From Escherichia coli (GTDB taxonomy: Bacteria > Pseudomonadota > Gammaproteobacteria > Enterobacterales > Enterobacteriaceae): 64,000 nt of DNA. The translations under genes were made by a program, and so were the position numbers. Of the stretch, positions 2,870-50,616 are shown piece after piece. Position 1 is the stretch's first letter, and each line of letters opens with the position of its first letter. The notes below the pieces were generated by a model. The model made no database searches. It saw only the letters and a list, made by a program, of their open reading frames with translations, and had not been told where the DNA came from. The stretch lies in NCBI RefSeq assembly GCF_030013595.1, contig NZ_CP122769.1; one strand, written 5' to 3'.

Positions 2870-3847
2870 ATGAAACAAAAATTTAGGGCTACTGCAATAA
2901 GTAGTAATCAACTTAGTTTTTTTTCTATACTCGATATAGATGAAGATGAAATAACGCAAATAGTTGATTCACCCAAAGAGCATTTAAATGATGCTTACAC
3001 GTCCGGATTAAACTTTAAATCAGAAGAAAGTAACATTTCTGAGATAAATTATGATTCTGAAAGGCGTGAAAATCACCTTTATGAAAAATCCAAATTACTT
3101 AAAAATCAGATTTTGCATACAATTAATTTTGCAGCAGAAACAGATTATCTATATACGGTTGAAGAATATAACCCAGATTTGGGTGGTCTGGTAATAGAAT
3201 GGACCCCTGAGGATGTGTATGTTGTTTTTCTATCCGCTATGGAAGAGTCTTTGGAAATCATTAAAGAACTAGTGTTGAGGAGAAAGTTATTCTTCAAAGA
3301 TGACAATGGTAATATCACAGTGAATCCACTTTTAGAAGCTGAAACACGGTGGTATATGTCAAAATCATTTGAATACACTTGTTTATCTCATGGACTTGAT
3401 GCATGTGAATTTAGAGCGGAATTAAAATCATGGCTCTATTATCATTCGCATCGTTCGATTAGTGAAAACACGAAATTAGCTGAATGCAGGAATGATGATG
3501 AAATCATTTTGCATGATTGCAATGACGATATGGGCTGGGACATCTTCTTTGATCAGGATTATTTAATGTCAGAAAAAAAACTGGCTGTTAAATGGACTGA
3601 CAGGGAAATTATGGATGTTTACATAAAAGCTTTTAAATCCACATTAGAGTTGTTTGACGAGCTTGTTTCATGTGATCTGTTAACTAAACGAAACGCTTTT
3701 GGCAAGTTAGAAATCAATCCAATATTCGAAAATCATTTTGAATGGATCATGTCTGAAGCTTTTGAAATAGTGGGAAATCATCTTGGTTATAATGTGCCTC
3801 AAATCAGGAAACTGATGGCAACTATTTGCCAAATGAATCTCAAATAA
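2870..3847 (+). CDS. hypothetical protein
   Basis: 325-aa ORF, co-directional with neighbours, preceded by stem-loop and GGAG-like RBS. No recognisable motifs. Confidence 0.5.
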   Translation: MKQKFRATAISSNQLSFFSILDIDEDEITQIVDSPKEHLNDAYTSGLNFKSEESNISEINYDSERRENHLYEKSKLLKNQILHTINFAAETDYLYTVEEYNPDLGGLVIEWTPEDVYVVFLSAMEESLEIIKELVLRRKLFFKDDNGNITVNPLLEAETRWYMSKSFEYTCLSHGLDACEFRAELKSWLYYHSHRSISENTKLAECRNDDEIILHDCNDDMGWDIFFDQDYLMSEKKLAVKWTDREIMDVYIKAFKSTLELFDELVSCDLLTKRNAFGKLEINPIFENHFEWIMSEAFEIVGNHLGYNVPQIRKLMATICQMNLK

Positions 3848-20783: not shown

Positions 20784-21764
20784 ATGAGCCTGGAGAAACG
20801 TATGAGTTATGACGATTTGCCCTATTTTCGTGACCAGATTCTGGAACGTATCGACTCGCTTAAGTGTTTTCTTTCGAACACCCCCCCGCTGATGGCAAAC
20901 CTGATGACTGTCTCCACCGTATCTCGAACAGAAGAGCGACTGAAGCAGGTTAAACCCATCAGGGTTAGTGTTAAAGACGATGCTTCGGTTGAGGAAATTA
21001 TTCAGGCACTTACTGACATCTGTGTGGATGACATAGAGTCATTAAGTCATGATTCCACCAAAGTGACCACTAAATACCCGGGTCTTATCATTGTCCCAGA
21101 AAGAGCAGATCTTCTCGAAAGCTTGATCACATCTATAAATGAAGCAAAAAATGATTTTGCTGCGGCAATGAGGCGTATCGATAATAAAAAGAATGTCCGT
21201 TTTGATAAAGTGCACAAGAAGCTCCCGGGCCTTGTCGCTATGCACTCAACAAGAAATGTCCTTTTCATCAAGTCCCAGCTTAAAAAAGTTACTTTTTCAT
21301 GGCGGCTAAACCGAAACCAGGAAGTTAAAACAGCAGAGCAACTTGTGAGTTTGTTGGAGCGCAGGAGAGCCTCAGAAGTAAAAAATGTAGCAACTACCAA
21401 TTTGAATGTCGTGTCTAATATCGATAAGGCTTTACACCGTCTTGAATTTCACCCACTGAAGCAGGGCGAATCTTATCGCCTTTGTCGAACTAACTCTTTC
21501 CCTGTTCCGATTGCTCACATTTTTGCATTTAGGCCTGAAGGGCAGGAACGAAACGGGAATAAATATGCTGAGACTGATTATTCAGTAGTAAAAGCATCCT
21601 TGCCCATTTTCGCAGCAGGCAACATACCTCAATTAAAAACGCTCTCTGACTGGGCTCCTGAAAACAGCCAGGGCCCGTCCAACCAACGGAAGCTGAGCCT
21701 GAAATATACAGAACTCGTGCCGGGGGCTGAGCTGGGCATTTTCATTGTCAGCCCCGAAAATTAA
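20784..21764 (+). CDS. hypothetical protein
   Basis: 326-aa ORF; alternative start at ATG 20823 has a better RBS (GGAGAAACG). No recognisable motifs. Confidence 0.45.
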   Translation: MSLEKRMSYDDLPYFRDQILERIDSLKCFLSNTPPLMANLMTVSTVSRTEERLKQVKPIRVSVKDDASVEEIIQALTDICVDDIESLSHDSTKVTTKYPGLIIVPERADLLESLITSINEAKNDFAAAMRRIDNKKNVRFDKVHKKLPGLVAMHSTRNVLFIKSQLKKVTFSWRLNRNQEVKTAEQLVSLLERRRASEVKNVATTNLNVVSNIDKALHRLEFHPLKQGESYRLCRTNSFPVPIAHIFAFRPEGQERNGNKYAETDYSVVKASLPIFAAGNIPQLKTLSDWAPENSQGPSNQRKLSLKYTELVPGAELGIFIVSPEN

Positions 21765-22965: not shown

Positions 22966-22981
22966 GCGCCCGTGAGGGCGC
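22966..22981. terminator. palindrome GCGCCCGTGAGGGCGC between convergent genes
   Basis: Perfect 6-bp stem with GTGA loop flanked by A-run upstream and T-rich sequence downstream; positioned between plus-strand stop (22959) and minus-strand stop (22981). Confidence 0.4.
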
Positions 22982-24171
22982 TATTCATCAAAGGCATTTC
23001 GCATAAGCTTGATCATTGCTTTTTTACCAGCTTCAATATTACGAATGTAGCGCATAACCATTTCTTCATTCGACCAGTTCCCCATTTCCATAATCTGTGG
23101 TAGCGAGTAACCTTCAATATTTAGCTGTATCGCTCCGCCTACACGAACGCTGTGCCCTGTCCAGTAACGAGTTTTAGTCTCATTTGGATAAAGCTCATTC
23201 CACATCTCTTTAAATGCTCGTAAAAGGGAATTTTTGCTGAGCATACCGGCATCGTCCACAGTGTCTTCTTCATCTTCATCTTCATCGTTCAGAAGACTTT
23301 GCTTAGCACGATAGGGTAGGTTATGCCTTTTAAGAAGTTCAGATAGCTCATTCCCCTTACTCCGAAGCTTCCAGCCGGGTGGCATATAGCCTGTATCATG
23401 GAAATTTACGGCCTGGAAAAGGAATTCATCCGGATGACTGTGCTGATCCATTTTCACGAGGTTCATCAATCTCAAGAGGCAGTTAGTTAACTGACGTGTC
23501 AGCCGGTAGGTAAGAAGTGTACTAATGTTCGTTTTTGTACGGTATACCGTCAGGTTAAATTCACCGGTCATACTATCCAGAGACAGATCTTTCAGACGTA
23601 TACGTCGAATTTCGGATGAACGGAGCAGTGTTTCAAAGCCTGTCCAGATCAGGCACAGGTCACGAAGTTTACGAACTGAGTTTGTAGTACTGCGTAACTT
23701 TATCAGAGCCTTGAGATCGCCAATAAGAAAGGGAGTTGCCTGTTTAGTCGTCTTTCGCTTCCGGGCTTCCGATTGTTTTAAGGCTTCCAGCATGTACCAT
23801 GCTTCAGACGTAATAATCCCGGGCAGGTTAAGCCCTTTTTTATGGATACTATTTAAGGCCTGAAGACAGCTGTTTATGCTGCTTCGTGACAATTTGCCTT
23901 CAAGATGCCCCATAAACGCAAGCAGAGCGTCCTCAGACACGGGGAGCGAACTTACTGGCCAGTCTGTATGCAACCGGGCATTCGCCAGATACCATTCGTT
24001 CCATACTCGTAGCCAGTGCAGATAGGTTTTAGCAGTGTTGTATCTCAGATGGGAAAAGTAACGGATCAAGCGTGAAAGCTGTTTATCATGGTTGCCGAAC
24101 GTTTCCAGCTGCTGATGCAATTCGCTTTCCGAAAACTGTCTGATCACTGATTGATTCTTCATCCTGCTCAC
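22981..24171 (-). CDS. tyrosine site-specific recombinase (phage-integrase family)
   Basis: C-terminal catalytic signature: LRSSEIRRIRLKDL (Arg), WTGHSVRVGGA (HxxR), MVMRYIRN (Tyr). Confidence 0.75.
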   Translation of the reverse strand: MSRMKNQSVIRQFSESELHQQLETFGNHDKQLSRLIRYFSHLRYNTAKTYLHWLRVWNEWYLANARLHTDWPVSSLPVSEDALLAFMGHLEGKLSRSSINSCLQALNSIHKKGLNLPGIITSEAWYMLEALKQSEARKRKTTKQATPFLIGDLKALIKLRSTTNSVRKLRDLCLIWTGFETLLRSSEIRRIRLKDLSLDSMTGEFNLTVYRTKTNISTLLTYRLTRQLTNCLLRLMNLVKMDQHSHPDEFLFQAVNFHDTGYMPPGWKLRSKGNELSELLKRHNLPYRAKQSLLNDEDEDEEDTVDDAGMLSKNSLLRAFKEMWNELYPNETKTRYWTGHSVRVGGAIQLNIEGYSLPQIMEMGNWSNEEMVMRYIRNIEAGKKAMIKLMRNAFDE

Positions 24172-47282: not shown

Positions 47283-47654
47283 TTACAGAAATGGAATTAA
47301 AAAGTGGTGATGCTGGGCACGTTTCTTTTCCAGCCGGGGTTTAAGCCAGAGCTGAAACTCATTCAACTTCTCAGCAGCCAAAACCGCTTCAACGGGGAAA
47401 ACTTTATATTTACCCTGTTGCTGAGGTTCACCCAGCCATCGCCTGATGGCTCCGTCAGTCCATAAACGAGTCTCTTTTAGCCTAGTTACAGTGACCCATT
47501 TTCTGGACCATTCATCAAATTGTCGCTGGCGATCCCGATAACGTTGTTCTTCCTGCTGCCGAAGCCACTCGCGATCAACAGCAAATTTTCGGTATCCAAC
47601 AAAGAGCCCTTGTACTTTGGCCATGTCATATTCCGGTTGCTTAGAGTTACTCAT
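47283..47654 (-). CDS. hypothetical protein
   Basis: 123-aa ORF, basic and Arg/Gln-rich; no recognisable motifs. Confidence 0.35.
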   Translation of the reverse strand: MSNSKQPEYDMAKVQGLFVGYRKFAVDREWLRQQEEQRYRDRQRQFDEWSRKWVTVTRLKETRLWTDGAIRRWLGEPQQQGKYKVFPVEAVLAAEKLNEFQLWLKPRLEKKRAQHHHFLIPFL

Positions 47655-47957
47655 TCAACCAAAACCTAAACGTCGATACAAACTCTGTTTCATAACCAGG
47701 GTTTTATCCTTACCGCGACAGTAAGTAACAGGGGCTGCATAAACCGGTCATTTAGTCCGTTATGCAAAAATTATTGAGGATCCGGGCTGTTAAACTGTTC
47801 TTCCTCTTTCGCTTCCGGTGAAAAGGGGAGGTGTCACCCTGCGAGCCCGTGTAGTGAAAGGGATTCGTCGTAATACAGGCCAAAGGCTAACATGACCGCA
47901 AAGGACGCCCGGGCGACCGGATACCTGCCGGGTTGTGCGATGTAAAATCCGGAAGCA

Positions 47958-48389
47958 GTGATAACACAAACAGGCCCCTACAGCGTAAGGATTGTGATGG
48001 ACGATAAAGAGCAGTTTACGAATCTTGTGGCAAAGCATGCCTCCGGACTCACCGAAGAGCAGCTGGCCGGGTACGATGCCTGTTCCCTGGATGGTGAATG
48101 CGTCACGCCTTCATACGAGGTTTTCCGGGGGTATCGTACCCGCCACACACTGGATGAATTTCTGGAGATGGCCATATCGCTGAATGCCATCCACCCGGAT
48201 GAATATTTAACGGATATGCTGCTGAAGCCTCATGAGGTGATCGGCGCTCTGGCCGATGAAGGCGACCAGCTGAACAACGCCACCCCGGTTTATTTCTTTC
48301 CGGATACCGGCGTCTATGCAGCGGCCGTTAGTGAAACCCGGGTGCTCGATGCCTGGCTTTGCTGGCCATGCTACCCGGCGAACTGGTAA
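47958..48389 (+). CDS. hypothetical protein
   Basis: 143-aa ORF; the internal ATG (MDDKEQF) may be the true start. No recognisable motifs. Confidence 0.3.
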   Translation: MITQTGPYSVRIVMDDKEQFTNLVAKHASGLTEEQLAGYDACSLDGECVTPSYEVFRGYRTRHTLDEFLEMAISLNAIHPDEYLTDMLLKPHEVIGALADEGDQLNNATPVYFFPDTGVYAAAVSETRVLDAWLCWPCYPANW

Positions 48390-48457
48390 CGCGGCCGTTG
48401 GAATTGCACCGGCCGGATACGAATTTAACCGACCCCGTGGCGGGAAGGCTATCAGAG

Positions 48458-48710
48458 TTGCATGTCCTCATCCCTCAAGCCCCCTGCCAGGCCCCAACGT
48501 GCTGTCAGGCTTCGCCTGATTCCCGATCTGCGCCGATACTTCAGCCGATAACTTTTTGTTTTCTTTTTATTTTCTTCCCATCTCCTCAAAAATCGCGGGC
48601 GGCGTGGACAGGGCACCATTGCCGCATGTGGGGTCTTAATAAGGGCAGGGTGGTCAGTTTTGCTCGATGCCAGGGGTAGGCCCTCCCCTTCATGGGATGA
48701 GGACATGCAA
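48458..48710. repeat. 253-bp segment bounded by a perfect 17-bp inverted repeat (TTGCATGTCCTCATCCC / GGGATGAGGACATGCAA)
   Basis: Inverted repeat read directly from sequence at 48458-48474 and 48694-48710; interior is non-coding. Confidence 0.35.
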
Positions 48711-48862
48711 GTAAGCTAACTATCTGAAATGACGAAGGTTCATTTGGTGAATGTCGCTTCATATTAATGTTGTGTCACTTATGATCGTATGTAGCTGGTT
48801 GCAAAGAGGAGCGATGAGACAATAAAGTTGTATCGCTAACAAGATTTATGCTGCCACATAGT

Positions 48863-48960
48863 AACAGCCTAAAAGTTGTACGCCCTATTTAACAGCTTTT
48901 AGGCTGTTAATTTGATATTACAGCTTTTAGGGTGTATGTTTAGGAAACAGCCTGCAAGGT
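48863..48960 (+). promoter_or_regulatory. hipBA promoter/operator region with repeated ACAGCYTW-type palindromes
   Basis: Palindromes AACAGCCTAAAAG..., AACAGCTTTTAGGCTGTT, ACAGCTTTTAGGGTGT, AACAGCCTGCAAGGTGT; embedded TTGATA - 17 bp - TATGTT (48912-48940) promoter-like hexamers. Confidence 0.45.
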
Positions 48961-48989
48961 GTATCAGAGGAAACTACTGAGGCCAGCTT

Positions 48990-49286
48990 ATGATCAATAA
49001 TGATTACCCGTTAAACACGCTCAACCAGCTGCGTCCCTTGCTCATTGGTTTTCGCAAGGCGAATGGCCTGACGCAAAAAGACCTGTCCGAAAGGTTAGGC
49101 GTCACTCAACAGACATACTCACGTCTGGAAGCCAACCCTGCCAGTGCGAGCATTGAACGGCTATTCAAGGTGTTTTCCATCCTGGGCGTAAAAATCAGCT
49201 TCTCCTCGGCAACCACCTCTTCAGAGAGGAAGCAGACGGAAGAAATGCTTAAATCAAACTCACCTGCACGACAGGAGGATTGGTAA
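48990..49286 (+). CDS. hipB: HipB antitoxin (Cro/C1-type HTH)
   Basis: HTH segment GLTQKDLSERLGVTQQTYSRLE; immediately upstream of hipA with 4-bp gap. Confidence 0.85.
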   Translation: MINNDYPLNTLNQLRPLLIGFRKANGLTQKDLSERLGVTQQTYSRLEANPASASIERLFKVFSILGVKISFSSATTSSERKQTEEMLKSNSPARQEDW

Positions 49287-49290
49287 CGAT

Positions 49291-50616
49291 ATGAGCCGGA
49301 AACAGCAACGTCTGGTAATTTGGATGAACGGCATCAAAGTCGGGTACTGGGAAAAAAGCAAAGGGGTAGACAGCTTAGAATACCTTCCTGAATGGGTTGC
49401 TGACGAACAGGGAAGGCCGCTGTCATTGTCCCTTCCTTTTACTCCCGGGAACCAGGTCTGGCGTGGAAATGTGGTACGTGACTATTTTGATAATTTACTG
49501 CCGGACAGCGAAGGCATACGCAGACGTCTGGCAATGCGTTACAAGGCCGATAGCCTGGAGCCTTTTGATCTGCTGACGGAGCTGGGAAAAGACTGCGTGG
49601 GCGCGATACAGCTGCTTCATGACGGAGATGAACCCACTGATTTATATTCCGTGAAGTATCACCCGCTTACTGAATCAGAAATTGCGGCAACTTTGCGTAA
49701 TACCACGGAGACATTGCTACCGGGCAGGCCAGAAGATAACGACGACTTACGTTTATCTATTGCCGGTGCTCAGGAGAAAACAGCCCTACTGTGGCATGAA
49801 GATCGGTGGTGTATGCCGGAGGGTAATACACCAACGACGCATATATTCAAGCTACCGCTCGGACTTGTGGGGAACATGAAAGCCGACATGAGCTCGTCGG
49901 TTGAAAATGAATGGCTCTGCTCGGTACTTCTCGGCCAGTACGGGCTCCCCGTGGCAAGAACGCAGATTGCTCACTTTGAAGATCAGAAAGCGCTGGTGGT
50001 AGAACGTTTTGACCGAAAATGGTCAGGAGACGGACAATGGATCATTCGTTTACCCCAGGAGGATATGTGTCAGGCCCTGGGCGTTTCGCCATTACGAAAA
50101 TATCAGGCGGACGGCGGGCCAGGTATATCGGAAATTATGGAGGTTCTGAGTAATTCAGACCGTGCTGAGCGTGACAAAGCGCAGTTTTTTATGACGCAGA
50201 TAATTTTCTGGATGATGGCCGCAACAGATGGCCACGCTAAAAATTTCAGTATTTCTATTGGGCCACAGGGACGTTATCACCTTACACCAAACTATGATGT
50301 GTTGTCGGCATGGCCGGTGATCGGTCATGGGAACAATCAGATATCCTGGCAGAAGTGCAAACTGGCGATGGCCGTACGTGGCAGTAGCAACTATTACCAG
50401 ATATATCGAATACAACGACGCCACTGGATCAGGCATGGTGAGATAACCGGCCTGAGTAAACAGCAGACAGAGGCGATGATAGAGGAAATCATCGCCAGAA
50501 CCCCGGGTGTCATTGAACGTGTTAGCGGGCTTCTTCCGGACCAGTTCCCCCAGCAGCTTGCGGAAAGTATTTTTGATGGAATGAGGCAGCAATGCAGGCG
50601 CCTGGCTGAGAAATGA
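49291..50616 (+). CDS. hipA: HipA serine/threonine kinase toxin
   Basis: Colinear with E. coli HipA including SIAGAQEKTALL, VERFDR, RLPQEDMCQ and ATDGHAKNFS motifs. Confidence 0.9.
   Translation: MSRKQQRLVIWMNGIKVGYWEKSKGVDSLEYLPEWVADEQGRPLSLSLPFTPGNQVWRGNVVRDYFDNLLPDSEGIRRRLAMRYKADSLEPFDLLTELGKDCVGAIQLLHDGDEPTDLYSVKYHPLTESEIAATLRNTTETLLPGRPEDNDDLRLSIAGAQEKTALLWHEDRWCMPEGNTPTTHIFKLPLGLVGNMKADMSSSVENEWLCSVLLGQYGLPVARTQIAHFEDQKALVVERFDRKWSGDGQWIIRLPQEDMCQALGVSPLRKYQADGGPGISEIMEVLSNSDRAERDKAQFFMTQIIFWMMAATDGHAKNFSISIGPQGRYHLTPNYDVLSAWPVIGHGNNQISWQKCKLAMAVRGSSNYYQIYRIQRRHWIRHGEITGLSKQQTEAMIEEIIARTPGVIERVSGLLPDQFPQQLAESIFDGMRQQCRRLAEK

What the first reader, a model, noticed from the sequence alone, without database searches (positions are those of the whole stretch)
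48458..48710. 253-bp non-coding segment bounded by a perfect 17-bp inverted repeat
TTGCATGTCCTCATCCC at 48458 and its exact reverse complement at 48694 enclose a non-coding interior. This could be a miniature inverted-repeat element, the ends of a degraded IS, or a long-range RNA stem enclosing a structured ncRNA just upstream of the hipBA operator.
Basis: seen in the sequence. Interest (0 to 1): 0.4.

Follow-up and report, generated by a model that had tools for sequence, protein, structure and literature searches.

The report
Conserved hairpin-ended spacer in IncHI plasmids
The 253-bp segment with perfect 17-bp inverted ends is real, but it is a single-copy, non-coding piece of the backbone of IncHI resistance plasmids rather than a jumping element; its ends are kept unchanged by selection, its function is still unknown, and a Tn7-like transposon repeatedly lands next to it.

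Summary
TTGCATGTCCTCATCCC (48458-48474) and its exact reverse complement (48694-48710) enclose 219 bp that code for nothing on either strand.

The window is an IncHI2 plasmid. The segment occurs once per replicon in about 1,450 IncHI1/IncHI2-type plasmids, always just downstream of the same 130-aa gene. It was never found elsewhere, has no target duplication and was never seen flipped. That rules out an active MITE, an IS remnant that still moves, and an invertible switch. It is also independent of hipBA, which adjoins it only in this lineage.

The 16-nt core of both arms is invariant across lineages in which the neighbouring gene's synonymous sites differ by 13-65%. The last ~65 bp of the interior is essentially unconstrained, and the interior has no conserved fold. 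Homology between lineages stops at the outer edge of the right arm, where a variable cargo slot begins.

There is no Rfam match, promoter, terminator or Frpo-type feature.

My best guess, at low confidence, is a + strand RNA domain read through from the upstream gene. Its ends would clamp into a 16-bp helix that acts as a processing or termination insulator before the cargo slot. A DNA-level pair of protein-binding sites is nearly as likely.

Side finding: Tn7-like transposons insert 37-47 bp left of the left arm, orientation-specifically, with a 5-bp duplication.

The parts
48458..48474 (.). Left arm of the inverted repeat (TTGCATGTCCTCATCCC); the invariant core is 48459-48474
   Evidence: Invariant in 19 distinct variants except the first base in L138.
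48694..48710 (.). Right arm (GGGATGAGGACATGCAA). Its outer edge is where homology between plasmid lineages ends.
   Evidence: BLAST matches of IncHI2A and IncHI1 plasmids end exactly at 48710. The innermost base varies in the Citrobacter and p1653 variants.
48475..48624 (+). Interior, left part. It is pyrimidine-rich (68% C+T over element positions 1-135, i.e. with the left arm) and has conserved blocks.
   Evidence: Alignments A3 and A5. Identity to the window is 85% (IncHI1), 74% (L138) and 83% (Citrobacter type). C/G ratio reaches 1.9.
48504..48520 (+). Small invariant hairpin GTCAGGC-TTC-GCCTGAT (7 pairs)
   Evidence: RNAalifold and pair counts: 99% of cells paired, with one G-C to G-U change.
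48552..48587 (+). Near-invariant pyrimidine tract CTTTTTGTTTTCTTTTTATTTTCTTCCC...
   Evidence: Invariant columns 95-120 of A5. Predicted unpaired in all folds.
48625..48693 (+). Interior, right part: hypervariable. A candidate helix 48625-48632 / 48687-48694 closes it.
   Evidence: Identity to the window is 55% (IncHI1), 61% (L138) and 32% (Citrobacter type), more diverged than synonymous sites of the adjacent gene in the first two comparisons. The helix at columns 168-175:230-237 has 4 compensatory pairs but fails in L138. The segment does not fold better than shuffles.
47997..48389 (+). Upstream 130-aa acidic hypothetical protein gene, tightly linked to the element. Together they form a 55% G+C block, 47682-48710.
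   Evidence: The gene occurs in 1450 PLSDB plasmids and the element in 1451. Block limits come and composition. No Pfam or PHROG match. Homologues lie in conjugative elements. The AF2 model has pLDDT 92 and no PDB fold match.
48409..48423 (.). Insertion points of Tn7-like transposons in other IncHI plasmids: TSD CCGGC = 48409-48413, and a second point at 48419-48423
   Evidence: Junction sequences. 26 plasmids carry the junction.
48711..48841 (.). First 131 bp after the right arm. It is shared only with the pIMP-042001-type lineage and marks the start of the variable cargo slot that here holds hipBA (48990-50616).
   Evidence: Annotation of related plasmids.

Best explanation
The segment is an immobile, single-copy, non-coding element of the IncHI1/IncHI2 plasmid backbone. 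It is inherited together with the 130-aa gene just upstream, and selection holds its two 16-17-nt ends constant.

Proposed mechanism (inferred, not shown). The element has no promoter or terminator of its own. It is therefore transcribed on the + strand by read-through from the upstream gene. In that RNA the two ends pair into a perfect 16-17-bp helix that closes a ~220-nt domain. The 5' two-thirds of the domain is a largely single-stranded, C/U-rich tract with one small invariant hairpin. The 3' third is a free-evolving spacer. The closed domain would act as a processing or termination module: a long double-stranded stem of the kind RNase III cuts, plus a Rho-loading-like C-rich tract. This would insulate the backbone gene from the variable cargo slot that starts exactly at the right arm.

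Shown: the repeat is real; it has a single locus and fixed orientation; it is non-coding; the arms are under constraint; the homology boundary falls at the right arm.

Inferred: that it is transcribed, that the ends pair in RNA, and what the RNA does.
For: Distribution. About 1,450 plasmids carry one copy each, always after the same gene. All 19 metagenome copies sit in the same context.

Constraint on the arms:
- 0 of 34 arm bases differ between IncHI2 and IncHI1, where the gene's synonymous divergence (pS) is 0.134 (P=0.0075).
- 1 of 34 differs in L138, at pS 0.27 (P=3e-4).
- 1 of 34 differs in the Citrobacter type, at pS 0.65.

Structure. The terminal helix accounts for the whole-element folding z-scores, -5.3 to -2.9 on the + strand.

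Strand. Every one-sided change in the small candidate helices is G-C to G-U on the + strand (pairs 44:74, 51:59, 138:146, 156:165). On the minus strand these would be A.C mismatches. A candidate helix next to the right arm shows 4 compensatory pairs.

Transcription context. No sigma-70 promoter or intrinsic terminator lies in or just before the element, and the flanking genes are all on the + strand. The left half has C/G ratios of 1.4-1.9 over 78-nt windows.

Boundary. Homology between lineages ends exactly at 48710, with different cargo beyond.
Against: - The terminal helix shows no G-U or compensatory variant in 15 pairs across 19 variants. That fits sequence-specific recognition of DNA at least as well as RNA pairing.
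- Without the arms, the interior folds no better than shuffles: z = -2.0, +0.06 and +1.2. The long-hairpin model of the window copy is not conserved. The candidate compensatory helix fails in L138 and was chosen by the program that scores it.
- Length is held at 252-253 nt despite 45-68% divergence of the right part. That suggests a spacing constraint, which is more natural for DNA.
- In 26 plasmids a 24-kb transposon separates the gene from the element. In one plasmid the gene is missing nearby. Co-transcription with that gene is therefore not indispensable.
- There is no Rfam match, and no transcript data were available.
Confidence: 0.3

Rival explanations
1. DNA-level element. The two arms are inverted binding sites for a sequence-specific protein, plasmid- or host-encoded, held at a fixed distance of about 236 bp centre to centre. 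They would form a looped or wrapped nucleoprotein complex at the edge of the cargo slot. The arms could have started as transposon ends that were later domesticated.
For: The arms are invariant at the sequence level, with no wobble or compensatory variants, while the neighbouring sequence diverges. Total length is held at 252-253 bp even where the right interior is 45-68% diverged, with +1/-1 indels cancelling in the Citrobacter type. The core ends are TG...CA. A protein-guided Tn7-like transposon inserts at a fixed side and distance, which shows that at least one protein reads conserved DNA in this ~60-bp neighbourhood.
Against: No candidate binding protein was identified. The arm motif occurs nowhere else in the 64-kb window, even with 3 mismatches. 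The adjacent 130-aa protein is acidic and has no DNA-binding family or fold match. The strand-asymmetric G-U pattern in the small helices is not explained.
Confidence: 0.27
2. Single-stranded-DNA hairpin used during conjugation. The transferred strand would fold through the arms to make a priming signal (ssi) or an Frpo-like single-strand promoter for establishment genes.
For: The element sits in a conjugative plasmid among small establishment-type genes: an acidic 130-aa protein, HNH nucleases, a methyltransferase and H-NS. Homologues of the 130-aa gene lie in transfer or leading-type gene arrays. DNA-parameter folds are stable, with z = -5.3 and -3.9. G.T is poorly tolerated in DNA stems, which would explain the invariant arms.
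Against: No -35/-10 pair lies in either stem orientation by my reading of the sequence, and the scan found no promoter in the element. Frpo is defined by such elements in a long duplex (PMC11541004). The interior pairing is not conserved. The right half, where the promoter strand would lie, is hypervariable. The R27 oriT lies in Tra1 (my recollection of published work), whereas the window holds only the end of Tra2 (trhN, trhI) and no Tra1 gene, so this is probably not the immediate leading region.
Confidence: 0.12
3. A functionless fossil of a MITE or an internally deleted IS that inserted once in the ancestral IncHI backbone.
For: The segment is 253 bp with perfect terminal inverted repeats and TG...CA core ends. 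G+C is higher than in the flanks. Breakpoints fall at an element end.
Against: The arms are far more conserved than neutral expectation. There is no target duplication. No second copy or empty site appears in about 1,450 plasmids, 5,426 E. coli genomes, 100,044 species genomes or the metagenome scan. The high-G+C block also includes the upstream gene.
Confidence: 0.1
4. An invertible DNA switch (inverton, fimS-like) that flips a promoter towards the cargo slot.
For: The size, the perfect flanking inverted repeats and the position upstream of a variable operon resemble fimS-type switches. A tyrosine recombinase is encoded on the plasmid at 22980-24161.
Against: None of 1,401 plasmids carries the flipped orientation. 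There is no promoter-like site inside. The recombinase gene is 24 kb away.
Confidence: 0.02
5. A hidden small-protein or type I toxin gene (hok-like mRNA with 5'-3' fold-back) encoding the hydrophobic FCFLFIFF peptide.
For: The + frame from TTG at 48458 is open for about 73 codons in most variants and has a hydrophobic core. End-to-end pairing resembles fold-back inhibition in hok mRNA (my recollection of published work).
Against: pN/pS is about 1, and all substitutions within IncHI2 are non-synonymous. Variants L156 and L145 carry in-frame stops, and L138 has a CTG first codon plus a frameshift. 7.8% of shuffles are equally open. No antisense promoter was found.
Confidence: 0.03

Closest known systems
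MITEs / internally deleted insertion sequences
   Same: Size of about 250 bp, perfect terminal inverted repeats, TG...CA core termini, non-coding interior.
   Different: Single fixed locus, no target-site duplication, no other copies or empty sites. The ends are conserved by selection in an element that does not move.
Long-range processing stems cut by RNase III (for example the stems flanking pre-16S and pre-23S rRNA, or lambda sib retroregulation). Recalled from the literature, not tested.
   Same: Two distant complementary segments pair into a perfect helix of 16 bp or more. The helix encloses or follows a functional RNA and lies between co-directional genes.
   Different: No transcript or cleavage evidence here. 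The enclosed sequence has no conserved fold. The helix is conserved in sequence, not only in pairing.
attTn7 (the glmS-proximal Tn7 attachment site recognised by TnsD)
   Same: Tn7-like elements carrying tnsABC and tniQ insert next to it repeatedly, in one orientation, with a 5-bp duplication and with the right end facing the conserved sequence 37-63 bp away.
   Different: The conserved landmark is a non-coding plasmid element rather than the end of an essential chromosomal gene. Two insertion points lie 10 bp apart. Binding of TniQ to the arm has not been shown.
Frpo / ssi single-strand promoters of plasmid leading regions
   Same: An intergenic hairpin-forming segment of about 250-330 nt in a conjugative plasmid, upstream of co-directional accessory genes.
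   Different: No -35/-10 elements in a duplex stem. Only 17 bp of conserved pairing. The half that should carry the promoter is hypervariable.
Invertible promoter switches (fimS, Proteus mrp switch, gut-bacterial invertons)
   Same: A segment of about 250-300 bp bounded by inverted repeats, directly upstream of a variable operon.
   Different: Never found inverted in 1,401 plasmids. No internal promoter and no adjacent recombinase.

Membership tests
MITE / non-autonomous IS | Terminal inverted repeats | tested here: met
   17-bp perfect arms
MITE / non-autonomous IS | Direct target-site duplication flanking the element | tested here: not met
   Six different flank pairs were inspected and none shows a duplication
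MITE / non-autonomous IS | Several copies at different loci, or empty sites in relatives | tested here: not met
   One place per record in 1,451 plasmids and 401 E. coli genomes. All 19 metagenome copies are at the same locus. The genome scan gave 119 single chance-level hits and no two-arm locus among those examined. The gene occurs in 1450 plasmids and the element in 1451.
MITE / non-autonomous IS | A parent IS with matching ends and a transposase | not testable with these tools
   No ISfinder access. No match to the arm elsewhere in the window.
Invertible promoter switch (inverton) | Both orientations present in a population or in databases | tested here: not met
   0 of 1,401 plasmids match the flipped-state junction over at least 80% of its length
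Invertible promoter switch (inverton) | Promoter inside the invertible segment | tested here: not met
   No sigma-70-like site within 48458-48710 on either strand
Invertible promoter switch (inverton) | Dedicated recombinase encoded nearby | tested here: not met
   The nearest tyrosine recombinase is at 22980-24161, 24 kb away
Frpo / ssi single-strand promoter | -35 and -10 (and UP) elements paired within a long stem | tested here: not met
   Definition from PMC11541004. Reading both stem orientations gives TTGCAT followed by no -10 at 16-18 nt, and the promoter scan found none.
Frpo / ssi single-strand promoter | Extended, conserved imperfect hairpin | tested here: not met
   Interior z-scores are -2.0, +0.06 and +1.2. 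Inner helices are 68-86% paired, with no covariation above the slid controls.
Frpo / ssi single-strand promoter | Sequence similarity to the known Frpo/ssi sequences | not tested
MOBH origin of transfer | Compact inverted-repeat hairpin with the nic site a few nucleotides away | tested here: not met
   The arms are 219 nt apart, whereas the GGI minimal oriT is 50 nt with a 32-nt inverted repeat (PMC6736028). The R27 oriT was mapped in Tra1 (recalled from the literature).
Rfam RNA families | Match to a curated covariance model | tested here: not met
   Only chance-level hits at E of 0.8 or more, far below the gathering scores
Type I toxin-antitoxin (hok-like) | Small ORF under purifying selection | tested here: not met
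   pN/pS is about 0.9-1.1, and variants carry stops and a frameshift
Retron ncRNA (msr-msd) | Flanking a1/a2 inverted repeats with a reverse transcriptase gene directly downstream | tested here: not met
   Inverted repeats are present, but no lineage has an RT gene downstream
attTn7-type homing site | Recurrent insertion of Tn7-like elements at a fixed place and orientation with a 5-bp duplication | tested here: met
   TSD CCGGC in pEQ2. 26 plasmids carry the junction. A diverged relative and a remnant lie 10 bp away in the same orientation.
attTn7-type homing site | Target selector (TnsD/TniQ) binds the conserved sequence on the right-end side | not testable with these tools
   tniQ is present in the transposon. 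There is no CRISPR array or spacer match. The left arm lies at +37..+63 from the duplication centres.

The most novel reading that the evidence does not exclude
The element could be the founding example of an undescribed plasmid-backbone ncRNA, or of a boundary element. It would be a ~250-nt domain excised or closed by a sequence-invariant 16-bp terminal helix, marking the edge of a cargo (defence/toxin-antitoxin) slot in IncHI plasmids. A family of TniQ-guided Tn7-like transposons would have adopted it as a plasmid-borne 'attTn7', giving them sequence-specific homing onto conjugative resistance plasmids.
Probability: 0.2. Interest if true: 0.65.

Novelty: new variant of a known kind. Interest (0 to 1): 0.4.

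Why it matters
IncHI1 and IncHI2 plasmids are major carriers of multidrug, colistin (mcr) and metal resistance in Salmonella, E. coli and Enterobacter. A non-coding element whose ends have stayed identical across all these lineages points to an unrecognised cis-acting function in their backbone. It sits exactly where accessory cargo is exchanged: hipBA, a protease cassette or IS elements.

Knowing what reads these 16 bases would explain how this slot is insulated or remodelled. The candidates are an RNase, Rho, a DNA-binding protein or a transposon target selector.

The side finding also matters. A Tn7-like transposon with sugar-utilisation cargo homes beside the element with a 5-bp duplication. 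This suggests a sequence-specific route by which Tn7-like elements board conjugative plasmids, and it offers a natural safe-insertion site for engineering IncHI plasmids.

Tried and rejected
- Rfam scan at permissive E-value: only chance hits.
- Promoter and terminator scan: nothing inside the element.
- Scan of one genome per species for the 16-nt arm: 119 single hits, about the number I expect by chance (~140, my own arithmetic). The Buttiauxella hit lies inside a coding gene. This was a poor use of that scan.
- Coding hypotheses on both strands: rejected.
- Inverton hypothesis: rejected.
- Long-hairpin model taken from the window copy: not conserved.
- Folding of the hypervariable 3' domain: not better than shuffles.
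- Tus/Ter idea. The plasmid encodes Tus at 20784-21764. R6K's terminus, as I recall it, is a pair of inverted repeats, and a Ter-like motif follows the right arm in the IncHI1 and Citrobacter types. However, the arms match the Ter consensus at only about 8 of 17 positions (by eye), and the window has no Ter-like site above chance. Dropped.
- oriT/MobI-like module idea, prompted by a homologue of the 130-aa gene next to a MOBH relaxase: other contexts differ, and the inverted-repeat geometry does not fit.
- Structure prediction of the 130-aa protein: confident model, no PDB match, no clue to the element.
- nhmmer profile of the element against all fetched loci: no remote copies next to distant gene homologues.
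- Literature searches by arm sequence and by IncHI topics: nothing describes the element.
- R27 region 30-79 kb: does not contain the element, so R27 ORF names were not recovered.

Full report
**1. The observation**

The window holds TTGCATGTCCTCATCCC at 48458-48474 and its exact reverse complement at 48694-48710, 219 nt apart. The 17-mer has no other match in the 64-kb window, even with three mismatches. It is the only long-range perfect inverted repeat of its kind in the window. About 0.002 such pairs are expected by chance.

**2. Where the window comes from, and how the segment is distributed**

The region matches large E. coli plasmids at 99-100% identity. There are 407 places in 401 of 5,426 genomes, and 393 of them are on plasmids of about 200-300 kb. 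The annotation of a matching record shows an IncHI2 backbone: trhN/trhI transfer genes, the ter tellurite cluster, Tus, Hha and H-NS.

In PLSDB the segment is present in 1,451 plasmids of Escherichia, Salmonella, Enterobacter, Klebsiella and Citrobacter. Those examined are typed IncHI2/HI2A, IncHI1A or 'IncHI1B', and almost all carry one copy. The 130-aa ORF just upstream (47997-48389) is found in 1,450 plasmids, so gene and segment travel together.

Two wider scans found nothing new:
- A scan of one genome per species for the 16-nt arm returned 119 single hits, about what I expect by chance, and no locus with both arms among the loci fetched.
- A metagenome scan with a 30-nt left-end pattern returned 19 contigs, all with the same left flank and one of the known right flanks.

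The segment therefore never occurs outside this one backbone locus.

**3. Not a mobile element, not a switch, not a gene**

- No flank pair shows a target-site duplication.
- A query built to match the flipped state covers at least 80% of its length in 0 of 1,401 plasmids. The segment is therefore not an active invertible switch.
- The minus-strand 84-aa ORF that spans the element exactly is an artefact of the ATG in the palindromic ends. It carries stops in the other lineages.
- The + frame that starts at base 1 stays open, but pN/pS is about 0.9-1.1. All substitutions within IncHI2 are non-synonymous, and some variants have stops or a frameshift. 7.8% of shuffles are equally open.

**4. What is conserved**

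Nineteen distinct variants were aligned (A5). Both arms are invariant over 16 nt. Only the outermost pair (in L138) and the innermost pair (in the Citrobacter type and p1653) ever change.

The table calibrates this against the neighbouring gene. pS is the gene's synonymous divergence from the window copy; the other columns are per cent identity to the window copy.

| Comparison | Gene pS | Arms | Left interior | Right interior |
|---|---|---|---|---|
| IncHI1 | 0.134 | 100 / 100 | 85 | 55 |
| L138 | 0.27 | 94 / 100 | 74 | 61 |
| Citrobacter type | 0.65 | 100 / 94 | 83 | 32 |

- The arms are much more conserved than neutral sites, with P = 0.0075 and 3e-4 for the first two comparisons.
- The left interior holds conserved blocks: CCCCTGCC, the hairpin GTCAGGC-TTC-GCCTGAT, and a 26-nt pyrimidine tract.
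- The right 65 nt is unconstrained. Between IncHI2 and IncHI1 it is more diverged than synonymous sites, which suggests mosaic replacement.
- Total length stays at 252-253 nt, apart from a 240-nt copy on a low-coverage metagenome contig and a 260-nt copy on a probably error-prone long-read contig.

**5. Boundaries**

Homology between lineages ends exactly at 48710. What follows the right arm depends on the lineage:
- hipBA in the window;
- a 3.3-kb protease/membrane-protein/463-aa cassette and then hipBA in R478-like IncHI2A plasmids;
- an IS3 or small ORFs in IncHI1;
- other genes in the Citrobacter type.

The supposed tie to the hipBA operator is therefore an accident of this lineage.

In the Citrobacter 'IncHI1B' lineage the sequence left of the left arm is also strongly diverged, and similarity resumes about 6 nt before the arm. 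One plasmid (Cfre_HI2A) is a recombinant whose junction lies just inside the left arm. The element is thus an island of conservation. Together with the upstream gene it forms a 55% G+C block (47682-48710) inside 40-45% G+C flanks.

**6. Structure**

Whole-element folds have strong z-scores: + strand -5.3 as DNA or RNA, minus strand -3.9 and -3.0. IncHI1 and the Citrobacter type give -2.9 to -5.1.

Without the arms, the interior folds like shuffled sequence, with z = -2.0, +0.06 and +1.2 on the + strand. The long-hairpin model of the window copy decays in other lineages: helices are 68-86% paired, with no covariation beyond the slid controls.

RNAalifold keeps the following:
- the terminal helix;
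- the 7-bp hairpin;
- a few short helices in which every one-sided change is G-C to G-U on the + strand;
- a candidate 7-pair helix (columns 168-175 with 230-237) with four compensatory pairs. This helix fails in L138 and does not make the 3' domain more stable than shuffles.

There is no Rfam family, and no promoter or intrinsic terminator in the element. The left half is C-rich and G-poor, with a C/G ratio up to 1.9.

**7. Comparison with known kinds**

- MITE/IS: fails on duplication, copy number and mobility.
- Inverton: fails on orientation, promoter and recombinase.
- Frpo/ssi: fails on -35/-10 elements in a duplex and on a conserved long hairpin (definition from PMC11541004).
- MOBH oriT: these are compact hairpins (PMC6736028), and the R27 oriT lies in Tra1 (recalled from the literature).
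- Retron: there is no RT gene.
- hok-like toxin: there is no selected ORF.
- Tus/Ter pair: considered and dropped.

**8. The upstream gene**

The gene encodes an acidic 130-aa protein with no Pfam or PHROG family. Its family is small, with 27 representatives at 50% identity.

Homologues lie in conjugative elements:
- directly upstream of a MOBH relaxase and an integrase;
- inside an F-type T4SS cluster;
- in a RadC/ParB_N array.

None of these has the element. The AF2 model is confident (pLDDT 92) but has no PDB fold match.

**9. Side finding: a Tn7-like landing site**

In pEQ2 a 24,042-bp Tn7-like transposon (tnsA, tnsB, tnsC and tniQ, plus fructo-oligosaccharide utilisation cargo) is inserted between the gene and the element. 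It has a perfect 5-bp duplication, CCGGC, which corresponds to window 48409-48413. Its right end faces the element. Twenty-six PLSDB plasmids carry this junction.

A diverged relative in an IncHI2A mcr-9 plasmid, and a 163-bp right-end remnant in an E. coli chromosome, sit 10 bp further on (48419) in the same orientation. The transposon has no CRISPR array and no sequence match to the target.

For Tn7, as I recall the literature, the right end faces the TnsD-binding site at about +23 to +58. Here the left arm lies at +37..+63. The inference is that a TniQ-type selector reads the conserved DNA at or next to the left arm. This does not reveal the element's own function, but it does show that the site is a dependable landmark.

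**10. Verdict**

What the segment is seems well supported: a selected, immobile, non-coding backbone element of IncHI plasmids at the edge of a cargo slot. How it works is not.

I favour a + strand RNA domain clamped by the terminal helix that acts in processing or termination (confidence 0.30). A pair of DNA protein-binding sites at fixed spacing is nearly as likely (0.27). Less likely are a conjugative ssDNA hairpin (0.12) and a functionless fossil (0.10).

The decisive experiments are end-mapped RNA-seq in rnc and Rho-inhibited backgrounds, and compensatory arm mutagenesis.

Noticed in passing
window 48409-48423; L171 12600-12615; L134 1490-1510; L169 9095-9110; L003 2838-3002: Tn7-like transposons (tnsABC + tniQ) insert between the 130-aa gene and the inverted-repeat element with a 5-bp duplication (CCGGC), right end facing the element. 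The pEQ2 copy is 24 kb and carries fos sugar-utilisation cargo. A diverged relative and a 163-bp remnant sit 10 bp away. The site looks like a plasmid-borne attTn7-type site.
   Followed up: yes
window 47997-48389: The 130-aa acidic protein belongs to a small, unannotated family found in conjugative elements. Contexts include a position next to a MOBH relaxase, one inside an F-type T4SS cluster, and a RadC/ParB_N array. The AF2 model is confident (pLDDT 92) and has no PDB fold match.
   Followed up: partly
window 48625-48693: The right third of the element is more diverged between IncHI2 and IncHI1 (45%) than synonymous sites of the adjacent gene (13%), yet the flanking right arm is identical. 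This points to mosaic replacement or very fast evolution, and it is unexplained.
   Followed up: partly
window 20784-21764; L130 3778-3796; L004 about 3355-3380: The plasmid encodes a 326-aa Tus homologue. A distant homologue of the 130-aa gene on a MOBF plasmid has a canonical Ter site (AATTAGTATGTTGTAACTA, minus strand) 400 nt downstream. IncHI1 and Citrobacter-type plasmids have a Ter-like ATGGTGTAACTTG about 50 nt after the right arm. The window itself has no Ter-like site above chance.
   Followed up: partly
window 48711-48990, compared with L136 22497-25832: The slot after the right arm varies between lineages. R478-like IncHI2A plasmids carry a three-gene cassette there (trypsin-like protease, membrane protein, 463-aa protein) before hipBA. 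The window lineage lacks it and keeps only a 131-bp linker.
   Followed up: partly
window 48857-48962: Nested palindromes (ACAGCCTAAAAGTTGT / ACAGCTTTTAGGCTGT, three to four copies) lie upstream of hipB. They are probably the HipB operators and are unrelated to the 17-bp repeat.
   Followed up: no
window 48452-48706, minus strand: An 84-aa basic ORF begins with the ATG inside one arm and ends just past the other arm, so it spans the element almost exactly. It is interrupted in the other lineages and is a by-product of the palindromic ends.
   Followed up: yes
L159 (metagenome contig), equivalent to window 48540-48552: One low-coverage metagenome copy lacks 13 nt between the two CCGATA direct repeats, which looks like a slippage deletion. 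It gives a 240-nt element with intact arms.
   Followed up: no
window 47645-47682, compared with L136 16625-21469: Relative to R478-like plasmids, a 4.8-kb block (restriction-modification fragment, helicase, hypothetical genes) is absent just left of the gene-plus-element block in the window. In a close relative of the window lineage, a similar helicase pair lies about 6 kb to the right instead, which suggests a rearrangement with a breakpoint at 47682.
   Followed up: no
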